From the NCBI GenBank assembly GCA_052326445.1, contig JBKQNC010000014.1:12470-76469 (forward strand): DNA of 64,000 nucleotides, written 5' to 3'. The translations under genes were made by a program, and so were the position numbers. Source of the DNA: Thermoplasmata archaeon. GTDB lineage: Archaea > Thermoplasmatota > Thermoplasmata > Lutacidiplasmatales > UBA184. The notes under the pieces are model-generated. The model had not been told where the DNA came from. It worked only from the letters and a program-made list of their open reading frames with translations, and ran no database searches. Shown in pieces: positions 21,812 to 36,345 of the stretch (position 1 is its first letter; every line of letters begins with the position of its first letter).

Positions 21812-22633
21812 ATGGACTGGGGACTCTCGAACCGGATTCACCGGATGTTCCTCCCGTCGAGCGGGAACACGGTCATGCTCGCGGTCGACCACGGTTACTT
21901 CATGGGCCCGACCCGGCGTCTCGAGGACGCCGGGGCGACGATCGCGCCCCTCCTTCCCCACGCCGACGCGCTCGCGCTCACGCGCGGGATCCTGCGCCGG
22001 ACCGTGCCCCCGACCACGCGGACCCCAATCGTGCTCCGAGTTTCGGGCGGCGTGACTGTCCTCCAGGAGGACCTCTCCGACGAGGCCGTAACGACCTCGA
22101 TGGCCGAGGCAGTCCGCCTGAACGTATGTGCGGTCGCCTTGAGTGTCTTCGTAGGATCGCCCCACGAGCACGAATCGCTCGTCCACCTGGGCGAGCTCGT
22201 CAACCATGGGGAGGAGGCCGGTATGCCGGTGATGGCAATCACTGCCGTCGGCAAGGAGCTCGAGAAGCGAGATGCCCGGTACCTCGCGCTCGCCTGCCGG
22301 GTCTCGGCCGAGCTCGGCGCCCACCTCGTCAAGACGTACTACTGTGACGGGTTCGCGAAGGTCGTCGAGGGATGTCCGGTCCCCATCGTGGTCGCCGGCG
22401 GCCCCAAGCTGGACAGCGACCGGGCCGCTCTCGAGCTCGCGCGCAGGGCGATCGACGAGGGGGCCCACGGGATCGACATGGGCCGGAACATCTGGCAATC
22501 CGACCACCCCGTGGCGATGCTGAAGGCGCTCCGGGCCATCGTCCACGAGAAGGCGACGGTTTCCGAGGCACTCGACGTACTGAACGACGAGAAGGGGCGT
22601 GCCGCCGGGGCCCCGAAGTCCGCGGCCGCGTGA
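21812..22633 (+). CDS. DhnA-type class I aldolase (archaeal fructose-bisphosphate aldolase / ADH synthase family)
   Basis: 273 aa; 'MLAVDHGYFMGP', 'HLVKTYYCDGF', 'IVVAGGPK' are characteristic of the DhnA/FbaB family. Confidence 0.75.
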   Translation: MDWGLSNRIHRMFLPSSGNTVMLAVDHGYFMGPTRRLEDAGATIAPLLPHADALALTRGILRRTVPPTTRTPIVLRVSGGVTVLQEDLSDEAVTTSMAEAVRLNVCAVALSVFVGSPHEHESLVHLGELVNHGEEAGMPVMAITAVGKELEKRDARYLALACRVSAELGAHLVKTYYCDGFAKVVEGCPVPIVVAGGPKLDSDRAALELARRAIDEGAHGIDMGRNIWQSDHPVAMLKALRAIVHEKATVSEALDVLNDEKGRAAGAPKSAAA

Positions 22634-22680
22634 GCTCGCCTAACCTCACCGCCCGGGTGCGGGTCGGCCTCCCCGCGCCG
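22632..22680 (+). repeat. Direct repeat copy 1 of the tRNA-Leu promoter/5' region ('gagctcgc..taacc..cccgggtgcgggtcggcc')
   Basis: An 18-nt exact match 'cccgggtgcgggtcggcc' plus flanking similarity with 24810..24860. Confidence 0.6.
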
Positions 22681-22760
22681 AGATGGACCAGCCTAGCCCG
22701 CGGCGCCGGATTCAGGTTCGCGTAGCGGTGCCGATCCCCCTCAGCACGGACCGGATCCGT
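22670..22760 (+). pseudogene. Degenerate tRNA-Leu-like sequence (pseudo-tRNA / partial duplicate)
   Basis: 'ccagcctagcccgcggcgccggattcaggttcgcgtagcgg' aligns with the tRNA-Leu D-arm and anticodon arm 'ccaagcttggccaaaggcgccagattcagggtctggtcccgtagggg'. No intact cloverleaf can be drawn. Confidence 0.35.
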
Positions 22761-22857
22761 TTCCTAGGTTCGGGTGGAACTGGGGTGGGATTCGGGTCCG
22801 ACTCAGTAGAGACTGCGGCCTATCCATATGGTCACCCCCTGCGGTCGGTGCGCCACC

Positions 22858-24000
22858 ATGAAGCGACCCCTAGCTCTGTGGCTGATCCCCGCGGCCGCCG
22901 CACTGCTGCTGCTGGTCTCGGCCTCTGCGTCCGCCCAAGCTCCGATCGCGCCGACCCTCGCCTCGGCCCCCGGGGCCGGAGGCGCAGTGTTCACGATGTC
23001 GAACGCCGTCGCCGGCAACACGGTCCTGGCCTACGAGATCGGACCCGAAAGCGCCCTCATCCCGGCGGGCCACTTCGGCACCCGGGGGACCGGCACAGGC
23101 TCCAGCTTGGCCGACCAAGGCGCGCTCGCCCTGACCTCGGACCACCGGTATCTCCTGGTCGTCAACGCGGGCGACAACTCCGTCACGGTGTTCGCTGTCC
23201 ACGCTCCCTCGCCCGTCCAGCCGATCCTCTCGTTCGTGGACCGAGTGGCCTCGCGCGGCGTCGAGCCCATCAGCCTGACCGTGCATGACCAGTTCGTCTA
23301 CGTGCTCAATGCGGGGAGCCCGACCGTGCCCGGCAACATCGCCGGGTTCCTGCTCGCCGACCACGGGCTTCTCCTTCCGCTCCCCGGCGCACGGCAGCCG
23401 CTGAGCACGAGCACCCCGGTCGGCCCCGCCGAGGTTTCGTTTAACCCGGCCGGGACCGTCCTGGTCGTCACCGAGGAGACCACGAGCCTGATCGACACCT
23501 ACCCGGTCAACTTCCGCGGGATCGCCCAAGCCCCGGTCGTCACCGCCTCCAACGGCAGCACCCCATACGGGTTCGCGTTCAGCCACGGGGGTTCGCTCAT
23601 CGTCAGTGACGCGGCCATCGGGGCCCTCTCATCGTACTCCGTCGTGCGGGACGGTACCCTCACGGTCGTGAGCGGGTCCATCCCTGATGGCCAGGCCGCG
23701 CCCTGCTGGGTCGTGGTCAGCGGCTCCTACGCGTTCACCTCCAACGCGCACGGCGCCACGATCACGTCCTACCAGATCGGGGCGGGTGGGTCGCTCTCCG
23801 TCGCCGTGGACGTCGCCGCCACCACGGGCGCCGCCGACACCGACCTCGCCCTCGGGGGCTCGCACGGACAGTACCTCGAGGTCTACGACGCGGGAGCCGC
23901 CGAGCTCCAGGAGTTCCGGATCGGCGCCGGCGGGACTCTGACACCGCTCTACGCGGTCTTCTCGCTACCCCCGGCCGCGGAGGGCCTGGCGGCGTTCTGA
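22858..24000 (+). CDS. Secreted beta-propeller protein (6-phosphogluconolactonase / lactonase-like 7-bladed propeller family) with signal peptide
   Basis: Signal peptide 'MKRPLALWLIPAAAALLLLVSASASAQA' (internal ATG at 22858 within ORF 22828..24000); repeated 'VNAGDNSVTVF', 'VLNAGSPTV' blade motifs. Confidence 0.6.
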   Translation: MKRPLALWLIPAAAALLLLVSASASAQAPIAPTLASAPGAGGAVFTMSNAVAGNTVLAYEIGPESALIPAGHFGTRGTGTGSSLADQGALALTSDHRYLLVVNAGDNSVTVFAVHAPSPVQPILSFVDRVASRGVEPISLTVHDQFVYVLNAGSPTVPGNIAGFLLADHGLLLPLPGARQPLSTSTPVGPAEVSFNPAGTVLVVTEETTSLIDTYPVNFRGIAQAPVVTASNGSTPYGFAFSHGGSLIVSDAAIGALSSYSVVRDGTLTVVSGSIPDGQAAPCWVVVSGSYAFTSNAHGATITSYQIGAGGSLSVAVDVAATTGAADTDLALGGSHGQYLEVYDAGAAELQEFRIGAGGTLTPLYAVFSLPPAAEGLAAF

Positions 24001-24067
24001 GTCCCGAAACCCCACCCGAGGAGGGGGTTTCCCTGATAAGGGGCGACCGGCTCGGACGAGGCGCACC

Positions 24068-24424
24068 ATGAGCCCCGGCTTTCGCTCCCTGATGTGGTAC
24101 CTCCTCTTCGGCACCCGCGGCGGGCCGAACCGGCGTCGCCTCCTCGAGGAGCTGGGCCGGTCGCCGGCCAATGCCCACCAGCTCTCGGCCACCCTGGGCC
24201 TCGATTACCGGACCGTGCGCCACCACCTCCGGATCCTGGAGCGGAGCGGGGCCGTGATGCGGCCGGTGGGGGACGCGTACGCCACGCCGTACGAGATCTC
24301 GGCGTCCACCTCCGCGTACCTCGAGACCCTGACGACCTCCCCACCGCCGACGAGGGACGGTCGACCCGACGGCCGTCGCGGGGCCCGGCCTTCGGTGCCG
24401 CCGTCCCCTGGGGGTTTCCGATGA
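24068..24424 (+). CDS. Winged-helix transcriptional regulator (ArsR/PadR-like)
   Basis: 'LMWYLLFGTRGGPNRRRLLEELGRSPANAHQLSATLGLDYRTVRHHLRILERSGAVM'. Confidence 0.5.
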   Translation: MSPGFRSLMWYLLFGTRGGPNRRRLLEELGRSPANAHQLSATLGLDYRTVRHHLRILERSGAVMRPVGDAYATPYEISASTSAYLETLTTSPPPTRDGRPDGRRGARPSVPPSPGGFR

Positions 24425-24708
24425 GCGACCTCCTGATGGAGGCGAGCGTGGTCCTGGGACTCGTCAGCATCATCCTGGCCGGCGTGCTCTTCGTTCTCTA
24501 CCGGCGCCTCTACGCCCACACCCAGACCGGGTTCGGGCTGGCCCTGCTGATCTTCGCGGCGGCGTTCGTCGTCCAGAGTGGCCTCACCGTCTACTCCTAC
24601 CTGGCGGCGATGCCCCTCATCCCGGACACGTTCGCCCCGTTTCTCTTCGGGATCGGCCTCTGCGAAGCGACGGGCCTCGGCGCCGTGGTCTGGACCGCTG
24701 CGCACTGA
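24421..24708 (+). CDS. Small membrane protein (3 predicted TM helices), translationally coupled (ATGA) to the upstream wH regulator
   Basis: 'MSDLLMEASVVLGLVSIILAGVLFVLYRRLYAHTQTGFGLALLIFAAAFVVQSGLTVYSYLAAMPLI...'. Confidence 0.5.
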   Translation: MSDLLMEASVVLGLVSIILAGVLFVLYRRLYAHTQTGFGLALLIFAAAFVVQSGLTVYSYLAAMPLIPDTFAPFLFGIGLCEATGLGAVVWTAAH

Positions 24709-24809
24709 GCGAGTCCGCGGAATTCTCCGGACCGGGGCTTCTATTCCCTCACGTGGCCGGGGTACCCTCCCCGCGGCGTAGGTCGGGAGAACCGAGTTCG
24801 GGGTCGCCG

Positions 24810-24860
24810 GAGCTCGCACAAGCATCTTAACCCGGGTGCGGGTCGGCCCCCTCGCGCGGG
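24810..24860 (+). repeat. Direct repeat copy 2 (tRNA-Leu promoter region including the TATA-like 'atcttaac' and the tRNA 5' end)
   Basis: See copy 1; 'gagctcgc...cttaacccgggtgcgggtcggcc'. Confidence 0.6.
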
Positions 24861-24940
24861 GATTGCCAAGCTTGGCCAAAGGCGCCAGATTCAGGGTCTG
24901 GTCCCGTAGGGGTTCGGGGGTTCAAATCCCTCTCCCCGCA
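24856..24940 (+). tRNA. tRNA-Leu (anticodon CAG), class II with long variable arm; CCA not encoded
   Basis: Acceptor GCGGGGA/TCCCCGC (7 bp), anticodon stem CCAGA/TCTGG with loop TTCAGGG (anticodon CAG, G37), variable arm 'tcccgtaggggttc', T-arm GGGGG-TTCAAAT-CCCTC, discriminator A. Confidence 0.9.
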
Positions 24941-25270
24941 TCGACCTCGTCGACGGACCCTTCGGCAGAGGGAGTGATGATCCATCAGGGATGGTTCGAA
25001 TCCCCACTCCGACAAATCCACCGATTTTCGCCGAGAAGTGACTGGCTCTATAGCGCTTCCGCATAGGATTTGGACCCCCCGGGGGTTCAAAAACTCCCAG
25101 CAGCTTTCTGACGTGCAGCTTCGACCCCCAGTCCCCGATCGAATTCTCCCTCGCCTCCGGGAAGCGGTTGTTGGTGTCGAACCGGGGCGGAGTACTCCGC
25201 TGGGCTACAACCGTTTTCGAATTACGCGGACGGCCTTTCTACTGACTCCTCGACTCCGCTCGACCAGAAT
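24941..25270. other. tRNA-like fragments (T-loop/acceptor-like 'GGTTCGAATCCCC', 'GGGGGTTCAAAAACTCCC') with no complete cloverleaf; possible att-site scars or a split/intron-containing tRNA
   Basis: Read directly: 24985-25010 and 25079-25105 carry T-arm-like motifs. I could not fold either into a canonical tRNA on either strand. Confidence 0.3.
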
Positions 25271-25504
25271 CACCCAGAGGACCGACCCATGGACCGTGTA
25301 AAAGACTCGTACTTCTTTCGTCACGTGAAAGTGCCACACCCCGTGAATCTCACTGGTTGCTTTTACCTGGAGACCGGGATGAGACCGGAAGGGAGCGGCG
25401 CGGAGGAACTCGAGTTGGTCGTCGATTCGTCTCCGAAGCCGGAGAGGGAGTCTTCGAAGTTCCGATTCGGTCCGAGGGTCGTACTCGATCGTGTACAGGC
25501 TCAA
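25205..25504 (-). CDS. relE: Type II toxin, RelE/ParE family
   Basis: 99 aa; 'YTIEYDPRTESELRRLPLRLRRRIDDQLEFL...VKATSEIHGVWHFHVTKEVRVFYTVHGSVLWVILVERSRG' is a canonical RelE/ParE fold sequence. Confidence 0.8.
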   Translation of the reverse strand: MSLYTIEYDPRTESELRRLPLRLRRRIDDQLEFLRAAPFRSHPGLQVKATSEIHGVWHFHVTKEVRVFYTVHGSVLWVILVERSRGVSRKAVRVIRKRL

Positions 25505-25776
25505 AGGCCGAGCCTCCGACGCATCTCCTCTGCCGGGACTCCCTTCACCCGTCCCGCATGAAGGTCGGAGACTCGGCGTTTCAGCTCCGCAATCACCCGG
25601 GGCGGATAGTACTCTTCTGCAAGCTCTTGGAGAAGCTCATCGTAGGTTTCTCCCGGCCGCTTCATGCTTTCCAAGAGTTGCCGCGTGCTGGAGCGGATCG
25701 TGATGGTTGTGGGAGGGTCGGCCAGTGCCATCGGCCGCAATAGTTTGGCAATTGGGGATAACTCTTTTGGGCCCAA
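25501..25776 (-). CDS. Putative antitoxin (VapB/DUF217-like 'ETYDELLQEL' family), 4-nt overlap with relE
   Basis: 'ITIRSSTRQLLESMKRPGETYDELLQELAEEYYP' resembles archaeal putative-antitoxin family proteins. Position and overlap upstream of RelE support a TA operon. The start may be M16 (25731). Confidence 0.55.
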   Translation of the reverse strand: MGPKELSPIAKLLRPMALADPPTTITIRSSTRQLLESMKRPGETYDELLQELAEEYYPPRVIAELKRRVSDLHAGRVKGVPAEEMRRRLGL

Positions 25777-26460
25777 TGAACGGTGCCCATCACTCGGTCA
25801 GGTCCGTCCCCGGGGACTGGCCCGGAGGTCTCTGACGTCCGCGCGCATCGACCAAAGCTTGCCCGGAGAGCGGGGGCCGAACACTTGTTGAGGAGCGGGG
25901 CGTTGACCGTAGATCATGCGAAACTCGCTTACCGGGATTCACCTCACCGTGCGTCGTGCTTCTGTCTCCGCCCGATATCGACTCTGGGCGGAGGCCGACG
26001 GCGACTTCGGGGTGGTCCTTGCTCGGTCGAATACACTAGCTGGACTCCGACGAAACGCTGTCCGGGAGATTCGAAAGCAATGGGGGAGGGGGTATCTTGA
26101 GGGGAGGCAAGGGAGTGACGGAACTCGAGCCCCCCCCGAGATTCTCTGGCATCGATCTACCCGACAGTACGTACGCTGGGCGAGCAAGGGATTGTCGGAG
26201 GTCCGAAGGCGCTGGCGTGAGTCGGAGCGGAAGATTCGACGAGTTGAACGGAGACTTCGCCGGGCCGGTGCCTATGCCCGGGAGGCTCGACTCATCGCCC
26301 ATGGCCAAGTCTACCTCGAAGTGGACCTCGACCAGTCGAGGCGTACGGGCCGCCTTGAGGTCGCCCCTTGGAGCCCCTGACGGTACCATCCAGACCGTTT
26401 TCGACCAGTGGGGTCGTGGCCATTCCTACCGCGCGGGAAGGGATTCGAGGGACGGGCGAT

Positions 26461-26485
26461 GCGGGGTCAAGTCCCTCTCCCTGCA
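26461..26485 (+). repeat. Degenerate partial copy of the tRNA-Leu 3' end (T-arm plus acceptor: 'gcggggtcaagtccctctccctgca')
   Basis: 20/24 identity to tRNA-Leu 24916..24940 'gggggttcaaatccctctccccgca'. The stop codon of the alpha/beta-hydrolase gene lies within it. Confidence 0.5.
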
Positions 26486-27438
26486 CTCGACGGTTCGAGA
26501 CCCCCAGTACTTCCGCCTTGCGACCCGGGGGCCGAGCTTCCCGTTCCGGGTTCGGCCGGAAAGTGGCGCCCCAGCCATTCCACGACGGGGCCGGACGACC
26601 CCGGCGGAAACCGGGCGTGGAGGCCACCTGGAATGGTGAAGAACTCCTTCTGAGGGCAGCTCACCTGGTCGTAGAAGGCCTGGGCCGAATCGACCGAGAA
26701 CAGTTCGTCGCGATCCCCGACCCCGACCAGCACGGGGATGTCGGTCCGTCCCCGGATCGTGAGGTTCGGGGCGTCGATCCGGTTCCGTCGCAGCATCCGG
26801 ACCACCGCGCCGGCGCTCATCCCGTAGATCGACGAATAAAAGCGCGCCGAGTAGCGGAAGTTGAAAAGCGGGTTGTCGCGCCCCGTCATCCCCGGACGAT
26901 TGTACTCGATCAGGCGGCTGCGCCGGAAGATCGCGATCCCGAGGAGGGCTTTCAGCGCCGCTCCCGGAGTGGGCTTCGCGTAGGCCCCGGGCCGCACGTC
27001 CCGTCCGAAACTGAGGAAGATGAGACCGGCCACGCCGCGCGGGCGTTGGTTGACCGCCACGACTGCGGAGAACGCGCCGAGACTGTGTCCCAGCACGACC
27101 ACGCGCGCGTACTTCCCGTTCAGAACGGCGAGGGTCTCCGACAGGTCCTTCGCGAGCCGCTCACCGCTCGGATAGTCGCCGCGGATCCCATCGGAAAGCC
27201 CGTGCCCCCGCAGGTCCAAGCCGAACACCTCGAAGCCGGCTTGGGCGAGTTCTTCCCCGATCAGCTTCCCGTAGGGCTCGCTGTAGGCGGTGATCCCGTG
27301 AAGAATGAGGATGGCGGGCCGGGCACCGCCCGCGCCAACCCAGTGCCGCAGGAAGAGGGTCGTTCCGTCCGAGGTTCGAACGAGTTCGTGAGGGTTCCGG
27401 GACTCCTCTCGCAACCGTTCCACGTCGGGAGTCGGCAC
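26467..27438 (-). CDS. Alpha/beta-hydrolase (lysophospholipase/monoacylglycerol-lipase-like)
   Basis: 323 aa; 'AILILHGITAYSEPYGKL', nucleophile elbow 'VVLGHSLGA'. Confidence 0.75.
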   Translation of the reverse strand: MPTPDVERLREESRNPHELVRTSDGTTLFLRHWVGAGGARPAILILHGITAYSEPYGKLIGEELAQAGFEVFGLDLRGHGLSDGIRGDYPSGERLAKDLSETLAVLNGKYARVVVLGHSLGAFSAVVAVNQRPRGVAGLIFLSFGRDVRPGAYAKPTPGAALKALLGIAIFRRSRLIEYNRPGMTGRDNPLFNFRYSARFYSSIYGMSAGAVVRMLRRNRIDAPNLTIRGRTDIPVLVGVGDRDELFSVDSAQAFYDQVSCPQKEFFTIPGGLHARFPPGSSGPVVEWLGRHFPAEPGTGSSAPGSQGGSTGGLEPSSAGRGT

Positions 27439-27492: not shown

Positions 27493-28467
27493 CTAGGCGG
27501 GAACCGGGGTCGGGCAGTACGCCTCGGCGAGGTAATCGGAGATGTCCCGGATTTCGACGCCCTTCGGCACCACCCGGTTCAGGTTCGCGAGGCACAGAGG
27601 GCACGCGGTGACGACGTTCGGGTTACAGGCGGCGAGCTGCTCGACCCTCCGCCGAGCGATCTCGGCCGACTTGCCCGGGAAGAGGGTCTCGAGCGGCCCG
27701 CCGCAGCAGAACGTGAGCTTCCCCGAGAGCTCCGGTTCGTCGAGCGTGAGGCCCCCCTCCGCGAGAAGGCGGCGGGGCTGTTCGACGACCCCCTCGTAGC
27801 GGGCGTAGACACAGGAGTCGTGGATCGTCGCGGTCCGGTCGAGGTTCCTGAGTCGCTTCATCGGGCGCTCCGCGAGTACTTCGAGGTAGCTCTCGACGCG
27901 GACGTCGAACCCGGGCACGACCCTGGGATAGACGCTCCGCAGCATGTTGGTCGTATGCGGGTCGACCGTGATCGCCCGCTTGACCCCGTTCTCCCGGAGC
28001 ACCCCGGCGACGTACTTCGCGTGCCGAGCGAAGGCGGAATCCAGCCCCTCGTCGTGCGCGAGCGCGCCGGTGTAGAGGTCCTTTTCGTACAGATACCCGA
28101 AGTCGACCCCCGCCGCCCGGAGGAGGCGGGTGATGTTGCGGAGACGCTCGTTGTAGGCGCGCCGTTCGCCCGCGGTCGTCCGGGCCATGAACGGCGTGAG
28201 GTTGACGATCTTGTTCATCGACCGCGCGACGCCGAAGAGCCAGCCGTACGCCGAGTGCTCGAACTTGGCGAGCTGGCGGCTCATGGCGTTGATCGTCGGG
28301 ACCATCTGCCACATCTGGCCGGTGTAAAGGACGGTCTCCCCTCCGCGCGGGAGGTGGAGCCCCTTCGCCCATGCGGTTGACGTGCGTCGGCTGAGGGGGA
28401 GCGCGCTGCGGCGCTTGCGCAGGTTGTCCCCGAGCATCCCGAGCGTGCTCTCGATCGGAACCGGCAT
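27493..28467 (-). CDS. HdrB-like CCG-domain (Fe-S)-binding protein (heterodisulfide reductase subunit B family)
   Basis: Two Cys-rich CCG regions: 'TIHDSCVYARYEGV' and 'LTFCCGGPLETLFPG...VVTACPLCLANL'. Confidence 0.75.
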   Translation of the reverse strand: MPVPIESTLGMLGDNLRKRRSALPLSRRTSTAWAKGLHLPRGGETVLYTGQMWQMVPTINAMSRQLAKFEHSAYGWLFGVARSMNKIVNLTPFMARTTAGERRAYNERLRNITRLLRAAGVDFGYLYEKDLYTGALAHDEGLDSAFARHAKYVAGVLRENGVKRAITVDPHTTNMLRSVYPRVVPGFDVRVESYLEVLAERPMKRLRNLDRTATIHDSCVYARYEGVVEQPRRLLAEGGLTLDEPELSGKLTFCCGGPLETLFPGKSAEIARRRVEQLAACNPNVVTACPLCLANLNRVVPKGVEIRDISDYLAEAYCPTPVPA

Positions 28468-28476
28468 GGATACCTC

Positions 28477-28785
28477 TTAGACCTCCACGAGGCCGTGGAC
28501 CTCGCGATTCAGGTAGTTCCGGAGCGTCCGGACGTTCTCCGCGATGTGGATCCCGGCCGGACAGTTCGCCTCGCACATCCGGCACAGGAGGCACGAGAAG
28601 ATCGTTTCCTCGTTCCCGAGGACCGCCTCGCGGTCGCCGAGAAGGGCGTACCGGAACAGCCGTCGGGGCAACAGCTCAAGCCCGAGCGGGCACAACGCCG
28701 TGCACGTCCCGCAGTTGATGCAGAGACGGGCGTCGAACTCCCCGCCGAGGTGGAGGTCGTCGAGGAAGCGGGTATCGACCTTCAT
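28477..28785 (-). CDS. HdrC-like 4Fe-4S ferredoxin-domain protein
   Basis: 'CINCGTCTALCPLG' and 'CLLCRMCEANCPAG' (two Fe-S cluster-binding motifs). Confidence 0.7.
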   Translation of the reverse strand: MKVDTRFLDDLHLGGEFDARLCINCGTCTALCPLGLELLPRRLFRYALLGDREAVLGNEETIFSCLLCRMCEANCPAGIHIAENVRTLRNYLNREVHGLVEV

Positions 28786-29033
28786 GTTCGGTCCCCGACC
28801 AGTTCATACCGGAAGTAGTCGTCCGCGCGTCCCTTCGGGAGGTCCCGAACCGTCCCGTACCGCCGCATCGCCATCACCCACAGCGTGACCTCGGGGACCG
28901 GGGCCCCCAGGGCGGCTGCGATCTCGGGGAGCGTCTTCGGACCCGCGCGCAGGGCCGCGACCACCCGGTCCCGCTCGACCATCCCGTCGCGCAGGACCTC
29001 GTGAAGGTCCCGGAGGGTGGCTTTCGACGTCAT
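28782..29033 (-). CDS. Small winged-helix-like protein embedded in the hdr-like operon
   Basis: 83 aa from the internal start M62 of ORF 28782..29216 ('MTSKATLRDLHEVLRDGMVERDRVVAALRAGPKTLPEIAAALGAPVPEVTLWVMAMRRYGTVRDL'). 4-nt overlaps on both sides. Confidence 0.4.
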   Translation of the reverse strand: MTSKATLRDLHEVLRDGMVERDRVVAALRAGPKTLPEIAAALGAPVPEVTLWVMAMRRYGTVRDLPKGRADDYFRYELVGDRT

Positions 29034-30760
29034 GCCGCCTCCTTGGCGAGCGCGTCGATCATGGCGGTGATCTGCGCGTTGGTGTACCCCTGGACGGAGA
29101 CGGCCTGCTTCGGACACACGGGCACGCAGGCGCCCTCGCCCTTGCAGAGGACGCGATTGATCTCGGCCACGCGCCGGTCCCCGTACTCGACGGGGCTGAC
29201 GGCACCGTAGGGGCACGCCTTAGTGCACTCATCACACCAGACGCAGAGGGTCGGGTCGACCTTCGCGACCAGGGGGTCGAGGTCGACGTATCCCTTCATC
29301 AGCAGCGCGCCCGCCTTCGCGACCGACGCGAGGACGCTCGTCACGCTCTCCGCCACGTTCTTAGGCCCCTGGGCAGCCCCCGCGATGAACACCCCGTCCA
29401 CGACGGTCTCGACCGGTCGGAGCTTGACGTGGATCTCGTGGAAGAACCCGTCCTGGCCGAGGGGCAGCTTCAGGACCCGGGCGAGCGCGTCGTTCTCCCG
29501 CGCCACCATGCCGGTGACCAGCACGACCAAGTCGGGGCGGATCTCGACGTCCTCGCCCCGCATCAGCCGGTCGTGGACCGAGACCCGGAGCCCCTCGCCG
29601 TCCCGCGTGACGGAAGGGAGCGAGTCCTCCCCGTAGCGGAGGAAGACGGACCCGGCGCGGAGCGCCCGCTCGTAGAGGGCCTCGTACTTGCCGTACGTCC
29701 GGATGTCCCGGAAGAGGTGGAACTGGTGGACCGACGGGTCCCGGGCGCTCACGACGGTCGCGATGTGGGAGGTCGCGCTGCAGCAGTACCGGGAGCAGTA
29801 GAGGTGCGGCCCCGTCTCCTTCGATTCCTCGCGGGAGCCGACGCAGTAGACGTAGGCGATCGTCCGCACCGGCCGCCCCCGATACACGAGCGGGCCCGGA
29901 TGGTTCGCGAGGAGCTCTTTGAACTCCGGGAGCGTGAGCACTCCGTCGAGGCCGTACCCGAACTCGCCCGTCGCCGGGGAGTACGGGTCGAACCCGGTCG
30001 CGACGACGATCGCACCGACCGTGAGGGCGATCGAATCACCCGTCGCCGTACGAAGGCGCACGCGGAACTCGCCGACGCGGCCCTCCTTCTCGACGAGCTC
30101 GGTCGAAAGATAGAGGACGACGTTTTCCCGTCGGCGGACCTCCTCGAGAAGCCCGTCGATCAACGCCCGCCCGTTCTTGTCGTTGGGGAAGAGCGAACCC
30201 CAACGGACGACCTGGCCACCGGCCTGCTCGGCCTTCTCGACCAGGTGGACGGAGATGCCGAGGTCCGAAAGCGCGAGGGCGGCCCGGAGGCCGGCGACCC
30301 CGGCCCCGACGATCAGGACCTTGGGGATCGTCTCGACCCGCATGCGCTCGAGGGGGGTCGAGAGCGCGGTCTTCGCGACCCCGGCCCGGACGAGCTTCAG
30401 GGCCTTCTCGGTCGCGGCGGGTCGGTCGTGGGTATGGGCCCATGAACATTGTTCCCGAATGTTGACCTGGGTGTACTCGTACGGGTTCAGGCCGGCCCGC
30501 TGGGTCATGGCCCGGAAGGTCGCCGTGTGCAGCTTCGGGGAGCACGAGCAGACGACGACCCCGTCCAGCTTTCTCTCGCGGATCTCCTGGATCACGGCCT
30601 GCTGCGCGGCGTCGGAGCAGGCGAACATCTGGACCTGGGTCGAGACGACCATCCCCTCTTTCGCGGCCTCCGCCCGGACCTTCTCGGTGTCGACGTAGTC
30701 GGAGATGTTCCCGCCGCACTGGCAGATCACGACCCCAATCCGTCGAGGGGGGTCGGTCAT
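29030..30760 (-). CDS. HdrA-like FAD- and Fe-S-containing flavoprotein (heterodisulfide reductase subunit A family)
   Basis: 576 aa; FAD fold 'KVLIVGAGVAGLRAALALSDLGISVHLVEKAEQAGGQ'; C-terminal ferredoxin motifs 'CVWCDECTKACPYGA', 'CKGEGACVPVCPKQA'; N-terminal Cys cluster 'VVICQCGGNI...CSCSP'. Confidence 0.8.
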   Translation of the reverse strand: MTDPPRRIGVVICQCGGNISDYVDTEKVRAEAAKEGMVVSTQVQMFACSDAAQQAVIQEIRERKLDGVVVCSCSPKLHTATFRAMTQRAGLNPYEYTQVNIREQCSWAHTHDRPAATEKALKLVRAGVAKTALSTPLERMRVETIPKVLIVGAGVAGLRAALALSDLGISVHLVEKAEQAGGQVVRWGSLFPNDKNGRALIDGLLEEVRRRENVVLYLSTELVEKEGRVGEFRVRLRTATGDSIALTVGAIVVATGFDPYSPATGEFGYGLDGVLTLPEFKELLANHPGPLVYRGRPVRTIAYVYCVGSREESKETGPHLYCSRYCCSATSHIATVVSARDPSVHQFHLFRDIRTYGKYEALYERALRAGSVFLRYGEDSLPSVTRDGEGLRVSVHDRLMRGEDVEIRPDLVVLVTGMVARENDALARVLKLPLGQDGFFHEIHVKLRPVETVVDGVFIAGAAQGPKNVAESVTSVLASVAKAGALLMKGYVDLDPLVAKVDPTLCVWCDECTKACPYGAVSPVEYGDRRVAEINRVLCKGEGACVPVCPKQAVSVQGYTNAQITAMIDALAKEAA

Positions 30761-33495
30761 GCGTGCACCTCCGCCCGCTTCAGGTAGGCGGCGATCTGGG
30801 CCGCGGCGGCCTCGGAGTGGAGGATCGTGTCCGGGATGTCCCGGACGGCGGTCGCGGACCCGATGACGAACACCCCGTCGAGGCTCGTCTGGCCCGGCTG
30901 GAGCTCCTCGTCGGTCTCGCGCACGTAGGAGTAGGCGTCCCTCGCGGGGGCTCCCTGCGGGAAGAGACGGAAGGCACCCTGGTTGGGCAGGAGACCGGTG
31001 GCGAGGACGACGAGGTCGTGCCGGGCCTCCTTCGGGCCCCCCTCGCCCTCGATGTCCTCGTAGTGGACGATCAGGTCGTTGTTCTCAGCCTCCTCGACGC
31101 GGGCGACCTTGCCCCGGCGGAAGTTGACGCTCATGCCCTTCGTCTGCTGGAAGAACTCCTCGTACCCCTTGCCGAACGCCCGGATGTCGATGTAGTAGAC
31201 CGTGACGTCCGCGAGCGGGAGGGCGCCCATCAGGAGCTGCGCCTGCTTCATCGAGTACATGCAGCAGACGCGGGAGCAGAGCCGGTTCCCGACCTGCTCG
31301 TCGCGCGAGCCGGTGCAGAGGACGAACGCGACGTTCGACGGGGCCTTCCCGTCGGAGGGGCGGACGACGGCATTGAACGGACGGGTCGGCGCGAGGATCC
31401 GGTCCATCTGGGGGCCCGTGATCACGTTCGGGAACCGCCCGAACCCGAACGCGGGCTTGAGGCGGGCGTCGAACGGGGAGAATCCGGTCGCGAGCGCGAC
31501 GGACCCGACCGAGACGGTCTCGTGGCGGGCGCGCATGCCGAGGTCGATCGCGTCGGCGGGGCACGCGGCGATGCACTGGCGACATTCGCAGCAGACCCCG
31601 CAGTCGAGGCACCGGTTGGCGCTCGAGCGGGCCTCCGCCTCCCCGAGGGCGCCTTCGTACTCGTCGAACGAGGCGAGCCGCTCGGCCAGCGGACGGCGGG
31701 GGAGCGCGACGGGCTCCCGCCGGGTCCCCCCGTCGCGGGCACGGGCGAGGACCGGGGCTCGGTCGGCGACCGGCAATCGGTCGTCGAACCGGACGCTGTC
31801 GGCGGGCACGCCCCGAAGATACCGGTCGATGGAGAACGCGGCCCGCTTCCCCTGCCCGATCGACGCGACGATCATGGAGGGGCCGGTGACTGCGTCGCCG
31901 CCCGCATAGACGCCCGGGACCGGGGTGGCGAGCGTCTCGGGGTCCACCGTGATGGTTCCGTTGCGCGCGAGGGGGAGCTCGGAGGCGAACGCCCCCGTAT
32001 TCGGCGCGAGTCCGATCGCGGTGATGACCACCTCGGTCGGGACGGGTTCCGACACGGTGCGGTCGAACGTAGGACGGAAGCGGTGCTCGGCGTCGAAGAC
32101 GGCGGTGCACCGGATTAACTCGATGGCCAGGACCTTCCGGTCGTAGCCCAGGATCTGGCCGACGCCCCAGGAGTTCGTGACAACGACCCCTTCGTCCTCG
32201 GCCTCTCGGACCTCCCAGGCGTGGGCCGGCATCTCAGGCCGGGACTCGAGGCAGAACAGCTTGACCGACCGGGCCCCAAGACGGAGCGCGCTGCGGGCCG
32301 AATCGATCGCGACGTTGCCCCCGCCGATGACGACCACGACCTTCCCGCGGAGGTCGGGCGGGTGCCCGTCGTTGACGAGGTGGAGGAACTCCATCGAGTC
32401 GATCACGCCGTCGAGAGCTTCGCCCGGGACCCCGAGCTTGCGCCCCCCCCGGTCGCCAGTCGCGACGAACACCGCATCGAACCCGGCGCTCCTCAGCTCT
32501 GCGATCGAGGAGACTCGGTGCCCGGTTTCGATCTGGACCCCGAGGGCGGTGATGTTCTCGACGTCACGTCGGAGTACCTCCTTCGGCAACCGGTAGGACG
32601 GGATCCCCCAGCGCATGATGCCCCCGGGCTCTCCATCGGCCTCGAAGACGGTCACGTCGTAACCGGATTTTCCCAGGAAGAACGCCGCCGAGAGCCCGGA
32701 CGGGCCGGAGCCCACGATGGCGACCCGATGGCCCCGGCGCTCGGCCGGGGGCCCGTACTCCGGACTTGGGTGGGCGGCGTAGTATCGGTCCGCCATGAAC
32801 CGCTTGATCCCGCGGATCGAGACCGTGCCCTCGAGCTCGGCGCGGGTACACTGCTCCTCACAGGGGGCGTAGCAGGCTCGGCTCAGGACGCCCACCAGCG
32901 GGGCGTCCTCTAGGTGTTGGCGGAACGCCTCGTCGTACTGCCCCGCACGGACCAGGGAGACGTAGCCATGGGGCTTCACGCCCGCGGGGCAGGCGAACGA
33001 GCATGGCGAGGTTCCCGTCCGGGTGATGACCGCCTTCTTCGGGACGGCCTGCGGAAAGGCGATGTGGGCCGCGCGACGCGCGGCGAGGTCGTAGTTGAAC
33101 TCGTCTGGAACGTTCACGGTGCACACGGGCTCGCACAACGCGCACCCGGTGCACTTCGCGGCGTCGATGAACTTCGGCTTCTGGGTCAGGTGGACCTGGA
33201 ATCCCCCTGCGGGTCGCGGCGTGATATCGTCGACCTCGGAGTAGACGAGCGCCCGCACGTTGGGGTGGTTGTTCACCGCCGCCATCTTCGGCGTGGAGAT
33301 GCAGCTGGCGCAGTCGAGGGTAGGGAACACCTTGCTGAGGAGGATCATCCGTCCCCCGACGGAGGGCTCCTTTTCGACGAGCAAGACCTTGAACCCCATA
33401 TCGCCGAGGTTGAGAGCCGACTCCATCCCCCCGACGCCGGCCCCGACGACGAGCACGTCGTAGTCGGGTTTCGGCCGCCCGTCGGACGCGGGCAT
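30757..33495 (-). CDS. HdrA-like flavoprotein with an inserted complete GltD/NfnB/SudA-type NAD(P)H-dependent FAD oxidoreductase module (912 aa)
   Basis: N-terminus 'YDVLVVGAGVGGMESALNLGDMGFKVLLVEKEPSVGGRM' plus 'CTGCALCEPVC'. Central 'HRVAIVGSGPSGLSAAFFLGKSGYDVTVFEADGEPGGIMRWGIPSYRLPKEV...KVVVVIGGGNVAIDSARSALRLGA...VYAGGDAVTGPSMIVASIGQGKRAA' is a GltD-like NAD(P)H and FAD domain. 'CLDCGVCCECRQCIAACP' then the HdrA C-terminal domain 'CTGSRDEQVGNRLCSRVCCMYSMKQA'. Confidence 0.8.
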   Translation of the reverse strand: MPASDGRPKPDYDVLVVGAGVGGMESALNLGDMGFKVLLVEKEPSVGGRMILLSKVFPTLDCASCISTPKMAAVNNHPNVRALVYSEVDDITPRPAGGFQVHLTQKPKFIDAAKCTGCALCEPVCTVNVPDEFNYDLAARRAAHIAFPQAVPKKAVITRTGTSPCSFACPAGVKPHGYVSLVRAGQYDEAFRQHLEDAPLVGVLSRACYAPCEEQCTRAELEGTVSIRGIKRFMADRYYAAHPSPEYGPPAERRGHRVAIVGSGPSGLSAAFFLGKSGYDVTVFEADGEPGGIMRWGIPSYRLPKEVLRRDVENITALGVQIETGHRVSSIAELRSAGFDAVFVATGDRGGRKLGVPGEALDGVIDSMEFLHLVNDGHPPDLRGKVVVVIGGGNVAIDSARSALRLGARSVKLFCLESRPEMPAHAWEVREAEDEGVVVTNSWGVGQILGYDRKVLAIELIRCTAVFDAEHRFRPTFDRTVSEPVPTEVVITAIGLAPNTGAFASELPLARNGTITVDPETLATPVPGVYAGGDAVTGPSMIVASIGQGKRAAFSIDRYLRGVPADSVRFDDRLPVADRAPVLARARDGGTRREPVALPRRPLAERLASFDEYEGALGEAEARSSANRCLDCGVCCECRQCIAACPADAIDLGMRARHETVSVGSVALATGFSPFDARLKPAFGFGRFPNVITGPQMDRILAPTRPFNAVVRPSDGKAPSNVAFVLCTGSRDEQVGNRLCSRVCCMYSMKQAQLLMGALPLADVTVYYIDIRAFGKGYEEFFQQTKGMSVNFRRGKVARVEEAENNDLIVHYEDIEGEGGPKEARHDLVVLATGLLPNQGAFRLFPQGAPARDAYSYVRETDEELQPGQTSLDGVFVIGSATAVRDIPDTILHSEAAAAQIAAYLKRAEVHA

Positions 33496-33921: not shown

Positions 33922-34196
33922 TACTTGCCCCTTCGGACGTAGACGTGCCAGAGCCCGGCGGCCGGGAGGGTGCCCAGGTACTCATGGCCGACCTTCTTCG
34001 CCCAAAGCGGGACGTCCTCGGTCGTGCCCTCGTCCGACGAGATGATGTCCATTACCCCGTGCATCGGGACCGACGGGACCATCCGCTTCGCTTCCAACAG
34101 CGGGCCGGGGCAGGCAACGCCCCGGGCGTCCACGACCTTGTCGACCTTCAGGGCCTTCAGCTCCTCGATGTTCATGTTGGTTCCTCCGTGATTCAT
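33921..34196 (-). CDS. tusA: TusA-like sulfurtransferase (SirA/YedF/YeeD family, CPxP motif)
   Basis: 'DARGVACPGPLLEAKRMV'; the start may be M8 (34175). Confidence 0.7.
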   Translation of the reverse strand: MNHGGTNMNIEELKALKVDKVVDARGVACPGPLLEAKRMVPSVPMHGVMDIISSDEGTTEDVPLWAKKVGHEYLGTLPAAGLWHVYVRRGK

Positions 34197-34570: not shown

Positions 34571-34584
34571 CCGGTCCCGTGCCT

Positions 34585-35833: not shown

Positions 35834-35908
35834 GGCCGCCCTTCGCGGGTGGGCCCCCCTCCGGTCAGACGTCCAAGACCGTTTCTCCTTCCGGTGGGTC
35901 GGGTCGGC

Positions 35909-36289: not shown

Positions 36290-36345
36290 GCCCGGCCCTG
36301 GCCCCGAGGGGGGGCTGCACCGAACGGGTCATCTGGGGGCCCGGT

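What the first reader, a model, noticed from the sequence alone, without database searches (positions are those of the whole stretch)
22632..26485. tRNA-Leu(CAG) locus with degenerate partial self-copies on both sides
Seen in sequence: the intact tRNA-Leu (24856-24940) is preceded by 'gagctcgc..cttaacc..cccgggtgcgggtcggcc' (promoter region). That stretch is repeated 2.2 kb upstream (22632-22680), where it is followed by a degenerate copy of the tRNA D and anticodon arms. A degenerate copy of the tRNA 3' T-arm/acceptor ('gcggggtcaagtccctctccctgca') lies 1.5 kb downstream (26461-26485). Between the copies sit a secreted propeller protein, a wH regulator plus membrane protein pair, tRNA-like debris, and a RelE/antitoxin module. 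Established knowledge: site-specific integration into tRNA genes duplicates part of the tRNA at the element boundaries, and serial integrations leave arrays of partial copies. Inference: two or more ancient, now decayed, integration events, with no intact integrase remaining.
Basis: partly seen in the sequence, partly recalled or inferred. Interest (0 to 1): 0.6.

Follow-up and report, generated by a model that had tools for sequence, protein, structure and literature searches.

The report
tRNA-Leu island hotspot plus relocated tRNA
Both partial copies of the tRNA-Leu gene are real, but only the downstream one marks an old insertion of foreign DNA; the upstream one is the stump of the tRNA gene's original copy, left when the tRNA and three neighbouring host genes swapped order.

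Summary
Observation confirmed.

**Downstream copy (26464-26485).**
- It is a decayed attR of a 1.5-kb, low-GC toxin-antitoxin cassette.
- Related soil Thermoplasmata carry 21 further copies of the same tRNA segment (nt 64-85) in 14 of the 80 aldolase loci, plus one in L084.
- All lie downstream of tRNA-Leu(CAG) on its strand, some in arrays of three.
- Most are preceded by a conserved inverted copy of the T-loop segment, forming a 14-bp hairpin.
- No integrase was detected in any of these cassettes or loci, within the limits of the searches.

**Upstream copy (22632-22719).**
- It is not an att site of a foreign element.
- In 56 of 70 related loci the tRNA lies 51-150 bp after the aldolase gene, exactly where this copy sits.
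- The closest relatives (~85% nt identity) read aldolase, tRNA, islands, propeller-wHTH-DUF8036 trio, right flank.
- The window reads aldolase, stump, trio, tRNA, 10.4 kb variable zone, right flank.
- The "inserted" trio is therefore an ancestral neighbour. The stump is the pseudogenised 5' part of the old tRNA copy.

**Likely mechanism.** A local duplication followed by loss of redundant copies. The exact route is inferred, not shown.

**Verdict.** Moderately interesting. The integrase-less hairpin-att cassette arrays deserve follow-up.

The parts
21812..22633 (+). DeoC/LsrF-type aldolase; conserved left flank of the tRNA-Leu locus
   Evidence: Pfam DeoC, E = 4.6e-24. NCBIfam PRK08227, E = 1.7e-114. 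The gene is followed by tRNA-Leu(CAG) within 51-150 bp in 56 of 70 related loci.
22632..22719 (+). Left copy: pseudogenised promoter plus 5' part of tRNA-Leu (to tRNA nt 43), sitting at the ancestral tRNA position. It may start about 20 nt earlier, at 22613.
   Evidence: Repeat families D1 and D18. Alignment. 18-mer found twice against 0 expected. Collinear with the aldolase-promoter-tRNA(1-43) stretch of L084, L088 and L098 at 85%. TATA box lost. 3' half not detectable. Leftward extension into the aldolase gene is marginal, p about 0.02-0.03.
22720..22767 (.). Junction J1: 48 nt of untraceable spacer between the stump and the conserved region upstream of the propeller gene
   Evidence: No homolog in any fetched locus. 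No significant similarity to the tRNA 3' half.
22768..24708 (+). Trio of native genes: secreted lactonase-type beta-propeller (22828-24000), ArsR-type wHTH (24068-24424) and a small DUF8036 membrane protein (24421-24708)
   Evidence: Pfam hits. DUF8036 label comes from precomputed annotation. 84.5% nt identity to L084 7911-9851, which lies downstream of that genome's tRNA and islands. GC 0.70-0.75, like the host.
24709..24809 (.). Junction J2 between the trio and the relocated tRNA unit. Origin unknown. The last ~17 nt weakly resemble the aldolase 3' end.
   Evidence: No homolog elsewhere. Marginal similarity of 24793-24809 to 22613-22631. Weak hit of the att-unit weight matrix at 24718-24770, rank 6 of 128,000 positions.
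24810..24940 (+). Functional unit: native promoter (TATA-like TCTTAA) plus intact tRNA-Leu(CAG) at 24856-24940. Nt 64-85 of the tRNA (24919-24940) are the attachment core.
   Evidence: The core is defined by the common boundary of the copies in relatives.
25065..25093 (+). Palindromic T-loop-like motif ('hairpin B', GGATTTGGACC-N-GGTTCAAAA) near the tRNA-proximal end of the cassette.
   Evidence: The equivalent motif lies about 35 nt after the tRNA in L084 and L088, and 4-8 nt after it in L015, L047, L036, L049 and L063.
25205..25776 (-). Toxin-antitoxin pair: RelE/StbE-like toxin (25205-25504) and DUF7557/RelB-like antitoxin (25501-25776)
   Evidence: All hits are below curated cut-offs except DUF7557. 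Toxin: TIGR02385 E = 0.0025, Gp49 E = 0.028. Antitoxin: DUF7557 E = 2.5e-6 (27.3 bits, cut-off 25), TIGR02574 E = 2.7e-6. The same pair lies next to the tRNA in L088 (82.6% nt) and in L072 (61% and 78% aa).
25777..26440 (.). Decayed or unassigned part of the cassette
   Evidence: None of the three ORFs scanned here (25783-26100 +, 25916-26380 +, 26036-26389 -) has a Pfam hit at E <= 1, and 25916-26380 has no NCBIfam hit either.
26441..26505 (+). Decayed attR unit: remnant of the left hairpin arm (26441-26463), core copy of tRNA nt 64-85 (26464-26485, 19/22) and a flank resembling the tRNA 3' flank
   Evidence: The hairpin no longer folds (z = -0.45), against z = -6.75 for the family consensus.
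26467..27438 (-). Alpha/beta hydrolase. Lies outside the TA cassette; its stop codon overlaps the core copy. Cargo found only in this species among the fetched loci.
   Evidence: Pfam Hydrolase_4, E = 1.8e-31. No homolog in L001-L080.
27493..35262 (-). Hdr-like / FlpD / TusA / DsrE redox gene block of about 7.75 kb. It moves as a unit and is part of the variable zone between the tRNA and the right flank.
   Evidence: Pfam hits. Present downstream of tRNA-Leu in L004. Located elsewhere in L109 and L110, where the homology limits are window 27511-35262.
35376..42551 (+). Conserved right flank (g155, g126, DLH, Fer2, MoCoBD, Fe-ADH, PhoU). In the closest relatives it directly follows the trio.
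   Evidence: blastn of L084, L088 and L098 against the window. Fe-ADH and PhoU recur within 7 kb of the tRNA in many relatives.

Best explanation
Two unrelated histories meet at this tRNA gene.

**(A) Integration hot spot, downstream side.**
- In this clade of soil Thermoplasmata, the T-loop-to-3'-end segment of tRNA-Leu(CAG) (nt 64-85, plus about 20 nt of flank) is a recurrent attachment site.
- DNA cassettes enter there by site-specific recombination. The tRNA stays intact, and each cassette ends in a roughly 40-nt unit.
- That unit is an inverted copy of the T-loop segment, a 7-nt spacer, and then a direct copy of tRNA nt 64-85.
- Window 24941-26485 is one such old cassette carrying a RelE-like/antitoxin pair. 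Its attR unit has decayed.
- The cassettes carry no detectable recombinase, so one encoded elsewhere is inferred.

**(B) Relocated tRNA, upstream side.**
- The upstream copy is the stump of the tRNA gene at its ancestral position, next to the aldolase gene.
- The ancestral order was aldolase, promoter-tRNA, islands, trio, right flank.
- In this lineage the order became aldolase, stump, trio, promoter-tRNA, islands, right flank.
- The most economical route is a tandem duplication of the segment from about the aldolase stop codon to the end of the trio. Reciprocal loss of redundant copies would follow: unit 1 lost the tRNA 3' half and the islands, and unit 2 lost the trio. This is 'tandem duplication-random loss'.

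**What is shown and what is inferred.**
- Shown: the ancestral order, the orthology of the stump and the trio, and the recurrence of the att unit.
- Inferred: the duplication-loss route and a recombinase acting in trans.
For: **(A) Integration hot spot.**
- The core copy is beyond chance.
- 21 copies with <=4 mismatches occur in 14 of the 80 aldolase loci, plus one in L084. All are downstream of the tRNA on the + strand, none upstream and none on the - strand. L059 and L061 have three each.
- A conserved left arm that is absent from the tRNA itself gives a 14-bp hairpin (-16.6 kcal/mol, z = -6.75).
- The region downstream of the tRNA differs between genomes.
- GC dips across the cassette.
- A toxin-antitoxin cassette bounded by the same unit occurs in L072. 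The window's pair is shared with L088 at 82.6% nt identity.

**(B) Relocated tRNA.**
- 56 of 70 loci have the tRNA 51-150 bp after the aldolase gene.
- L084, L088 and L098 align collinearly with the aldolase gene plus the left copy up to tRNA nt 43. Their trio then matches 22768-24708 and their right flank matches 35376 onward.
- The left and right copies share five substitutions in the promoter block that L084 and L088 lack, so the duplication occurred within this lineage.
- The trio has native GC.
- The arrangement is seen in three independent assemblies.
- The sequence just upstream of the relocated promoter weakly resembles the aldolase 3' end. That is what a head-to-tail duplication junction would leave (p about 0.02-0.03).
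Against: **(A)**
- No integrase or integrase fragment was found, so the recombination mechanism is inferred from site architecture alone.
- The window's own attR is degraded (3/22 mismatches and a broken hairpin).
- No free or circular form was found. IMG/VR contains neither the unit nor even the 22-mer.

**(B)**
- No intermediate state with both copies was found.
- The expected remnant of a second trio copy next to g155 is not robust: p = 0.011 only when 13 nt of the g155 start are included, and p = 0.25 without them.
- Junction J2 cannot be traced.
- The junctions carry no repeats.
- The route needs at least three events.
- The right end of the repeat falls exactly in the anticodon loop, a classic recombinase crossover point. 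Duplication-loss does not predict that.
Confidence: 0.6

Rival explanations
1. [quoted passage not shown] It duplicated the 5' half, and the trio is what remains of that element.
For: The repeat ends in the anticodon loop/stem at tRNA nt 43. pTN3-like archaeal integrases use the 5' half of a tRNA gene as attB and leave the displaced 5' half at the old promoter (review PMC8371274).
Against: The repeat extends at least 45 nt upstream of the tRNA and includes the native, lineage-specific promoter. In the pTN3 case the recombinant tRNA is driven by an integrase promoter. The trio is an orthologous host segment present downstream of the tRNA in the closest relatives, at the same divergence as the flanks. 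It has native GC. No integrase fragments are present. None of 14 other loci with DNA between aldolase and tRNA has a left copy.
Confidence: 0.07
2. Left side by Campbell-type re-insertion. A circular DNA carrying the trio plus a copy of the promoter and tRNA 5' half recombined with the chromosomal tRNA gene. The recombination was either homologous or through a recombinase acting at the anticodon loop. The original trio copy was lost separately or had been excised to form the circle.
For: The structure, an 88-107-nt direct repeat flanking a 2.07-kb unique segment, is exactly what a single crossover with a circle produces. The trio is missing from its ancestral place next to g155. The trio occupies different loci in other lineages, for example L095.
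Against: It does not explain how a circle would come to carry the promoter and 5' half. No repeats or att-like units surround the trio in other genomes. It needs about as many steps as duplication-loss.
Confidence: 0.25
3. The downstream 3' copy and its relatives are not integration scars. They are local partial duplications of the tRNA 3' end (fold-back or slippage products), or chance matches.
For: No integrase was found anywhere. The unit contains a palindrome of the T-loop segment, which fold-back synthesis could in principle produce.
Against: Chance is excluded. The left arm and the 7-nt spacer GCCGGGC are the same in copies from different genomes and different array positions, which implies common descent of a mobile unit. 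The copies bound segments of unrelated cargo and low GC. Orientation and side are invariant.
Confidence: 0.08

Closest known systems
tRNA-linked integrative elements and genomic islands of archaea and bacteria (tyrosine integrases; T-loop / 3'-end sublocation; Williams 2002 scheme as summarised in PMC8371274)
   Same: The attachment core is the 3' part of a tRNA gene. The intact tRNA is kept at one end and a partial direct copy lies at the far end. Arrays arise from serial insertion. Cargo is variable and GC is lower.
   Different: No integrase was found in any of about 20 cassettes or in about 108 loci of up to about 20 kb. The element-side sequence next to the core is a conserved inverted copy of the T-loop segment, forming an 11-7-11 dyad (a 14-bp hairpin). 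A second similar palindrome sits at the other end of the cassettes.
pTN3-like 'suicidal' SSV-type integrases of Thermococcales (attB = 5' half of a tRNA gene; Cossu et al. 2017, cited in PMC8371274)
   Same: A displaced 5' half of a tRNA gene lies next to the old promoter. The intact gene lies on the far side of the insert. The repeat ends at the anticodon loop.
   Different: Here the repeat includes the native promoter. The insert is an orthologous host gene trio. There are no split integrase fragments.
Tandem duplication-random loss (TDRL) rearrangements with tRNA pseudogene remnants, classically in animal mitochondrial genomes (e.g. PMC4430869, PMC3326299)
   Same: Two adjacent blocks swap order without inversion. 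A tRNA pseudogene stump remains at the old position. Untraceable spacers lie at the junctions.
   Different: This is an archaeal chromosome and the unit is about 12.7 kb. Neither the intermediate nor a second-copy remnant was demonstrated. The moved block includes an integration hot spot.
Integron cassette arrays, and IMEX elements that use host Xer recombinases (from my own knowledge, not tested against a library)
   Same: Arrays of integrase-less cargo cassettes lie next to one fixed site. Each cassette ends in a palindromic recombination site with a dyad-symmetric geometry.
   Different: No integron integrase lies beside the site. The palindrome does not match attC R-box consensus sequences. 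The fixed site is a tRNA T-loop, not attI or dif. Any role for XerA or another host recombinase is pure inference.

Membership tests
tRNA-targeted site-specific integration (genomic island / integrative element) | Direct repeat of a tRNA gene segment bounds the inserted DNA, on the same strand, with the intact tRNA at one end | tested here: met
   24919-24940 versus 26464-26485, 19/22. Two hits in the window against 0 expected.
tRNA-targeted site-specific integration (genomic island / integrative element) | The same repeat boundary recurs in independent insertions at the same tRNA in other genomes | tested here: met
   21 copies of nt 64-85 in 14 of the 80 aldolase loci, plus one in L084. All are downstream on the + strand.
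tRNA-targeted site-specific integration (genomic island / integrative element) | Inserted segment is variable or absent at the site in relatives and deviates in composition | tested here: met
   Downstream content differs among loci. GC is 0.59-0.62 against 0.69. The TA pair itself is old and shared with L088.
tRNA-targeted site-specific integration (genomic island / integrative element) | Integrase gene, or its remnant, within or beside the element | tested here: not met
   No Pfam or NCBIfam hit in 24941-26460. No Phage_integrase among the listed families for 267 ORFs of related loci. jackhmmer with XerD, lambda Int and Cre over 9,281 ORFs gave one weak hit, near a tRNA-Glu in L023. Divergent SSV-type enzymes could have been missed.
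tRNA-targeted site-specific integration (genomic island / integrative element) | Excised circular form / attP on a free element | tested here: inconclusive
   No match in IMG/VR viral contigs to the unit or to the 22-mer. Plasmid and whole-genome collections were not scanned for the unit.
pTN3-like 5'-half tRNA integration | Repeat corresponds to the tRNA 5' half and ends at the anticodon loop | tested here: met
   Similarity runs to tRNA nt 43. The 3' half is not significant.
pTN3-like 5'-half tRNA integration | The recombinant tRNA is driven by element (integrase) sequence, and the repeat does not include the host promoter | tested here: not met
   Both copies carry the same lineage-specific promoter block. 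The intact copy has the clade's normal TATA-like box.
pTN3-like 5'-half tRNA integration | Insert is a foreign element flanked by split integrase fragments | tested here: not met
   The insert is the orthologous host trio. No integrase signal.
Tandem duplication-random loss rearrangement | Adjacent blocks change order, with orientation kept, relative to outgroups | tested here: met
   L084, L088, L091 and L098: aldolase-tRNA-islands-trio-R. Window: aldolase-stump-trio-tRNA-islands-R.
Tandem duplication-random loss rearrangement | Pseudogene remnant of the lost copy at the ancestral position | tested here: met
   The left copy is collinear with the orthologous aldolase-tRNA junction and has decayed: TATA lost and 12 of 43 tRNA positions changed.
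Tandem duplication-random loss rearrangement | Head-to-tail junction carrying the start of the duplicated unit | tested here: inconclusive
   About 20 nt upstream of the relocated promoter resemble the aldolase 3' end, p = 0.02-0.03. Nothing beyond that.
Tandem duplication-random loss rearrangement | Remnant of the second copy of the other block (the trio) at its ancestral place | tested here: inconclusive
   35345-35374 versus the 3' end of the membrane-protein gene: p = 0.011. This falls to p = 0.25 once the g155 start codons are excluded.
Type II toxin-antitoxin (RelE/RelB-like) | Adjacent small toxin and antitoxin genes matching the family models | tested here: inconclusive
   The genes are overlapping and co-oriented. 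Only DUF7557 just passes its cut-off (27.3 bits against 25). The RelE/StbE, RelB and Gp49 hits are below cut-off.
Integron-like cassette platform | Integron integrase next to the primary site, and attC sites with R-box consensus | tested here: not met
   The upstream neighbours are aldolase, AsnC and GlnA. The palindrome arms (GATTTGAACC / GGTTCAAATC) do not fit RYYYAAC / GTTRRRY, by inspection.

The most novel reading that the evidence does not exclude
In an uncultured order of soil Thermoplasmata, the tRNA-Leu(CAG) T-loop may act as the fixed docking site of a cassette platform.
- Cargo-only cassettes carry toxin-antitoxin pairs, large PKD/propeller surface proteins, or sugar and redox enzymes.
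- Each cassette ends in a roughly 40-nt dyad-symmetric hairpin-core site.
- The cassettes would be inserted, stacked and perhaps shuffled by a recombinase encoded elsewhere in the chromosome.
- This would be an archaeal analogue of integrons or Xer-exploiting IMEX elements.
- Palindrome units with other tRNA-like tails hint that further tRNA genes may be used in the same way.
Probability: 0.2. Interest if true: 0.75.

Novelty: new variant of a known kind. Interest (0 to 1): 0.45.

Why it matters
**For interpretation of partial tRNA copies.** A partial tRNA copy is not always an integration scar. A 5' stump that includes the native promoter can record a gene-order change by duplication and loss. 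That process is rarely documented in archaeal chromosomes.

**For the biology of this group.**
- The survey exposes a previously undescribed hot spot in an abundant, uncultured group of soil archaea.
- Dozens of genomes stack unrelated cargo behind one tRNA gene, each piece closed by the same hairpin-core site, with no integrase in sight.
- If the recombinase acts in trans, this would be a gene-capture platform of a kind not described in archaea.
- The site sequence is short and defined enough to test in vitro.
- The order-defining paper does not mention integrases, mobile elements or genomic islands (PMC9287336).

Tried and rejected
**Left copy and its junctions.**
- I tested whether the left copy is a decayed full-length tRNA. 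A gapped alignment looks suggestive, but it is not better than random window segments (p = 0.18-0.48).
- I looked for left-hand partial copies in the 14 other loci with DNA between aldolase and tRNA. None exist. Two short matches in L040 and L049 do not extend. Several of those inserts are a minus-strand M3-like peptidase gene.
- I looked for repeats, direct or inverted, at junctions J1, J2 and J3. None are significant.
- I tried to trace J1 and J2 in relatives and found no homologs. J2 is not derived from the g155 5' region.
- The remnant of a second trio copy at J3 looked significant at first (p = 0.011). It became non-significant once the overlap with the g155 start codons was removed.

**Search for a recombinase.**
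- The ORFs scanned in 25777-26460 and 45236-46609 give nothing.
- 267 ORFs of related loci show no integrase among the listed families. Only the top 25 families per run are shown, so single weak hits could be hidden.
- jackhmmer with XerD, lambda Int and Cre gave one weak, unrelated hit.

**Search for a free element.** Three scans of IMG/VR found no match.

**The trio as a mobile unit.** I asked whether it carries att-like ends in other genomes. It does not.

**Promoter block.** I considered over-reading the exact 18-nt promoter block as a functional or crossover core. With about 74% overall identity over 107 nt, a run of that length has a probability of about 0.1, so I did not build on it (my own estimate).

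Full report
**What is in the window**

The window comes from a high-GC (about 68%) uncultured soil Thermoplasmata archaeon. The best aldolase relatives are MAGs labelled Thermoplasmata or Lutacidiplasmatales, at up to 88% aa identity.

ARAGORN finds a single tRNA, tRNA-Leu(CAG), at 24856-24940 on the + strand. Rfam confirms it.

Genes around it:

| Coordinates | Strand | Gene |
|---|---|---|
| 21812-22633 | + | DeoC/LsrF-type aldolase |
| 22828-24000 | + | secreted lactonase-type beta-propeller |
| 24068-24424 | + | ArsR-type wHTH regulator |
| 24421-24708 | + | 95-aa membrane protein (DUF8036 in precomputed annotation) |
| 24856-24940 | + | tRNA-Leu(CAG) |
| 25205-25504 | - | RelE/StbE-like toxin (sub-threshold hits) |
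| 25501-25776 | - | DUF7557/RelB-like antitoxin |
| 25777-26460 | . | about 0.7 kb without any family hit |
| 26467-27438 | - | alpha/beta hydrolase |
| 27493-35211 | - | Hdr-like/FlpD/DsrE redox cluster |

**Check of the observation**

Both partial copies exist and are far beyond chance.

*Left copy.*
- 22652-22719 matches 24831-24898 at 79% over 68 ungapped nt. A second block, 22617-22639, matches 24795-24817.
- A gapped alignment covers 22613-22719, equivalent to tRNA positions -63 to +43.
- The exact 18-mer in the promoter region occurs twice in 64 kb, against zero in 100 shuffles.
- Similarity ends in the anticodon loop/stem. An anchored alignment of the following 62 nt to the tRNA 3' half is no better than random window segments (p = 0.18-0.48).
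- The copy is not called by ARAGORN or Rfam and does not fold.
- In the constant-offset register the TATA-like TCTTAA of the intact gene faces TCACCG in the left copy. The promoter is therefore dead.

*Right copy.*
- 26464-26485 matches tRNA nt 64-85 at 19/22. It is the only other hit at <=3 mismatches, against zero expected.
- GC falls from about 0.69 to 0.59-0.62 between 24850 and 26350. The upstream segment 22720-24800 is at 0.70-0.75, like the host or higher.

*Assembly.* The stump-trio-tRNA order is identical in a 1.25-Mb long contig, in a MAG contig and in a Logan contig from different samples. It is not a misassembly.

**The downstream side is an integration hot spot**

I fetched 80 aldolase loci from related genomes and located their tRNAs.

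*Copies of the tRNA 3' segment.*
- A scan for tRNA fragments showed that many loci carry extra copies of exactly tRNA nt 64-85 (GGTTCAAATCCCTCTCCCCGCA).
- With <=4 mismatches there are 21 copies in 14 of these 80 loci, plus one in L084.
- All lie 25-6,900 nt downstream of the tRNA, on its strand. None lies in the equally long upstream halves or on the minus strand.
- L059 and L061 have three each, forming arrays.
- The window's copy has the same boundary.

*The conserved unit.*
- Most copies are preceded by a conserved sequence that the tRNA lacks. The full unit reads (G)GATTTGAACC-GCCGGGC-GGTTCAAATCC-CTCTCCCCGCA.
- This is an inverted copy of the T-loop segment, a 7-nt spacer and the direct copy.
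- The consensus folds into a perfect 14-bp hairpin (-16.6 kcal/mol, z = -6.75).
- The window's unit keeps GGATTCGA of the left arm but has an insertion and no longer folds.

*The second palindrome.*
- A second, similar palindrome ('hairpin B') lies at the tRNA-proximal end of the cassettes. It sits 4-8 nt after the tRNA in L015, L047, L036, L049 and L063, and about 35 nt after it in L084 and L088.
- In the window it is at 25065-25093. This explains the 'tRNA-like debris'.
- About 20 nt of tRNA 3' flank is also repeated after several copies.

*Cargo.*
- The cassettes between units carry unrelated cargo. This includes large PKD/propeller surface proteins, a GH15/trehalase-type enzyme, an SDR, a glycosyltransferase, a HAD hydrolase, a TetR regulator, methyltransferases and DUF7557 antitoxins.
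- A TA cassette closed by the unit follows the tRNA in L072.
- The window's own TA pair is shared with L088 at 82.6% nt identity, about the divergence of the core genes. This insertion therefore predates the split of those lineages.

**No recombinase was found**

- 218 larger ORFs downstream of the tRNA in related loci, and 49 ORFs inside att-bounded cassettes, show no Phage_integrase among the listed families. Only the 25 top families per run are listed.
- jackhmmer with XerD, lambda Int and Cre over all 9,281 ORFs of all fetched loci and the window gave one weak hit, next to a tRNA-Glu in L023.
- IMG/VR holds neither the unit nor the 22-mer.

The site architecture argues for a tyrosine-recombinase-type reaction: a dyad of two 11-nt arms around 7 nt, with an identity block from the T-loop to the 3' end. 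That follows from established knowledge of such sites, summarised in PMC8371274. The enzyme itself is inferred, and it may act in trans.

**The upstream side is a relocated tRNA, not a foreign insertion**

*The ancestral position.*
- In 56 of 70 related loci the tRNA starts 51-150 bp after the aldolase gene.
- The left copy sits exactly there.
- Fourteen loci have other DNA between the two genes, often a minus-strand M3-like peptidase gene. None of them has a left partial copy.

*The closest relatives.*
- The decisive comparison came from homologs of the propeller protein and their contigs.
- L084-87, L091, L092 and L098 (propeller 86-88% aa) and L088-90 (84%) are the closest relatives, at about 85% nt identity across the region.
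- Their order is GlnA, AsnC, aldolase, promoter-tRNA-Leu, variable islands (1.9 kb in L084, 5.4 kb in L088), propeller-wHTH-DUF8036, g155, g126, DLH, Fer2, MoCoBD, Fe-ADH, PhoU.

*blastn of L084 against the window (the same for L098 and L091).*

| L084 | Window | Identity | Content |
|---|---|---|---|
| 5045-6011 | 21760-22719 | 85.3% | aldolase, promoter, tRNA up to nt 43 (the left copy) |
| 5923-6072 | 24812-24959 | 90.7% | intact promoter-tRNA unit |
| 7911-9851 | 22768-24708 | 84.5% | the trio |
| 9879-17141 | 35376-42551 | 80-85% | right flank |

*What this shows.*
- The trio is an orthologous host segment that ancestrally lay beyond the tRNA and its islands. More distant genomes, L054 and L002, also have it 2.2-2.6 kb downstream of the tRNA.
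- The window has the order aldolase, stump, trio, promoter-tRNA, 10.4 kb variable zone (24960-35375), right flank.
- The two promoter copies share five substitutions that L084 and L088 lack, so the duplication happened within this lineage.

**How the relocation happened**

This part is inference.

*Known constraints.*
- The repeat begins at about the aldolase stop codon. A further ~20 nt of similarity into the coding region is marginal (p = 0.02-0.03).
- The repeat ends in the anticodon loop.
- The junction spacers J1 (48 nt) and J2 (about 100 nt) have no traceable origin.
- No repeats mark the junctions.

*Preferred route.* Tandem duplication of the segment from the aldolase stop to the end of the trio (about 12.7 kb), followed by reciprocal loss of redundant copies. 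This explains three things:
- the swap without inversion;
- the pseudogene stump;
- the aldolase-like trace in front of the relocated promoter.

This mechanism is well established for tRNA-rich mitochondrial genomes (PMC4430869, PMC3326299).

*Weaknesses.*
- I could not show an intermediate.
- An apparent remnant of a second trio copy beside g155 (p = 0.011) lost significance once I removed the overlap with the g155 start codons (p = 0.25).

*Alternatives.*
- A Campbell-type re-insertion of a circle carrying the trio plus the promoter and 5' half gives the same final structure and remains a live rival.
- A pTN3-like integrase is the only archaeal type known to use a tRNA 5' half (PMC8371274). 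It would explain the anticodon-loop boundary. It fails three defining features: the repeat includes the host promoter, there are no split integrase fragments, and the insert is not foreign.

**The variable zone**

- The Hdr-like/DsrE block (window 27511-35262) behaves as a unit.
- It lies 2.4 kb downstream of tRNA-Leu in L004.
- In L109 and L110 it sits in quite different places. In L110 its CCG end lies next to a tRNA-Arg.
- Fe-ADH and PhoU, genes of the right flank, recur within 7 kb of the tRNA in many relatives.
- The ancestral frame at order level therefore appears to be aldolase, tRNA-Leu, variable zone, right flank.

**Verdict**

- It fails for the upstream copy, which is the stump of the tRNA's former position after a local duplication-based gene-order change.
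- The kind of system, a tRNA-linked island hot spot, is known.
- The hairpin-core attachment unit, the consistent lack of integrases across about 70 genomes, and the 5' stump with its native promoter make this an unusual variant worth a targeted follow-up.

Noticed in passing
window 45236-48992: An 845-aa HerA/TrwB-like ATPase (46455-48992; TrwB_AAD_bind E = 1.3e-7) lies next to about 1.4 kb with no family hits (45236-46609) and an HxlR-type regulator (44848-45399). This may be a remnant of a conjugative or plasmid-like element. No integrase is present.
   Followed up: partly
window 27511-35262; L109 9892-17677; L110 9913-17668; L004 14950-20789: The DsrE-ArsR-TusA-FlpD-HdrA-like-CCG redox block moves as a discrete unit of about 7.75 kb. 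It lies near tRNA-Leu in the window and in L004, next to tRNA-Arg(CCG) in L110, and among transposase genes in L109.
   Followed up: partly
L049 14368-14394; L071 14186-14212; L036 10979-11005; L061 13250-13276: Palindrome units of the same design are followed by tails that look like 3' ends of other tRNAs (for example ...CCCAGACCCGCACC and ...CCCACAGCCCGCACC). The same att design may therefore exist for other tRNA genes.
   Followed up: no
L095 6811-9714: In another lineage the propeller-wHTH-DUF8036 trio sits between homologs of two genes that are adjacent in the window (1827-2620 and 2767-4102). There are no tRNA or att-like sequences at its borders. The trio has changed place more than once in this order.
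   Followed up: partly
L002, L003, L004, L006, L017, L049, L078 (e.g. L004 10835-12271, minus strand): An M3-like metallopeptidase gene (HEVGH motif) lies between the aldolase gene and tRNA-Leu in seven loci, at 51-91% aa identity. It leaves no partial tRNA copy. The aldolase-tRNA spacer is thus a second, independent site of gene gain or loss.
   Followed up: partly
window 24913-24917 and the tRNA T-stem in L001-L080: The second base of the T-stem 5' strand is G in the window, L084 and L088 (a G-T pair), A in L022 (an A-T pair) and T in most other relatives. With the invariant 3' strand CCCTC, a T there would give a T-T mismatch.
   Followed up: no
L081 7017-8190 versus window 22828-24000: In the 1.25-Mb long-read contig of the same organism the propeller gene is called as two ORFs. 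That contig differs from the window by one mismatch and two gaps over 8.6 kb. This is probably a homopolymer error in that assembly.
   Followed up: no
L023 11640-12017: This was the only ORF in all fetched loci with any similarity to a tyrosine recombinase (E = 0.0012 to XerD). It lies beside a tRNA-Glu(TTC) at a contig end, 9.5 kb from the tRNA-Leu.
   Followed up: no
window 17529-21344: The 1271-aa + strand ORF is an artefact of high GC. Relatives have GlnA on the minus strand, followed by AsnC and a 144-aa gene on the + strand. Only the C-terminal AsnC part of the long ORF has family hits.
   Followed up: partly
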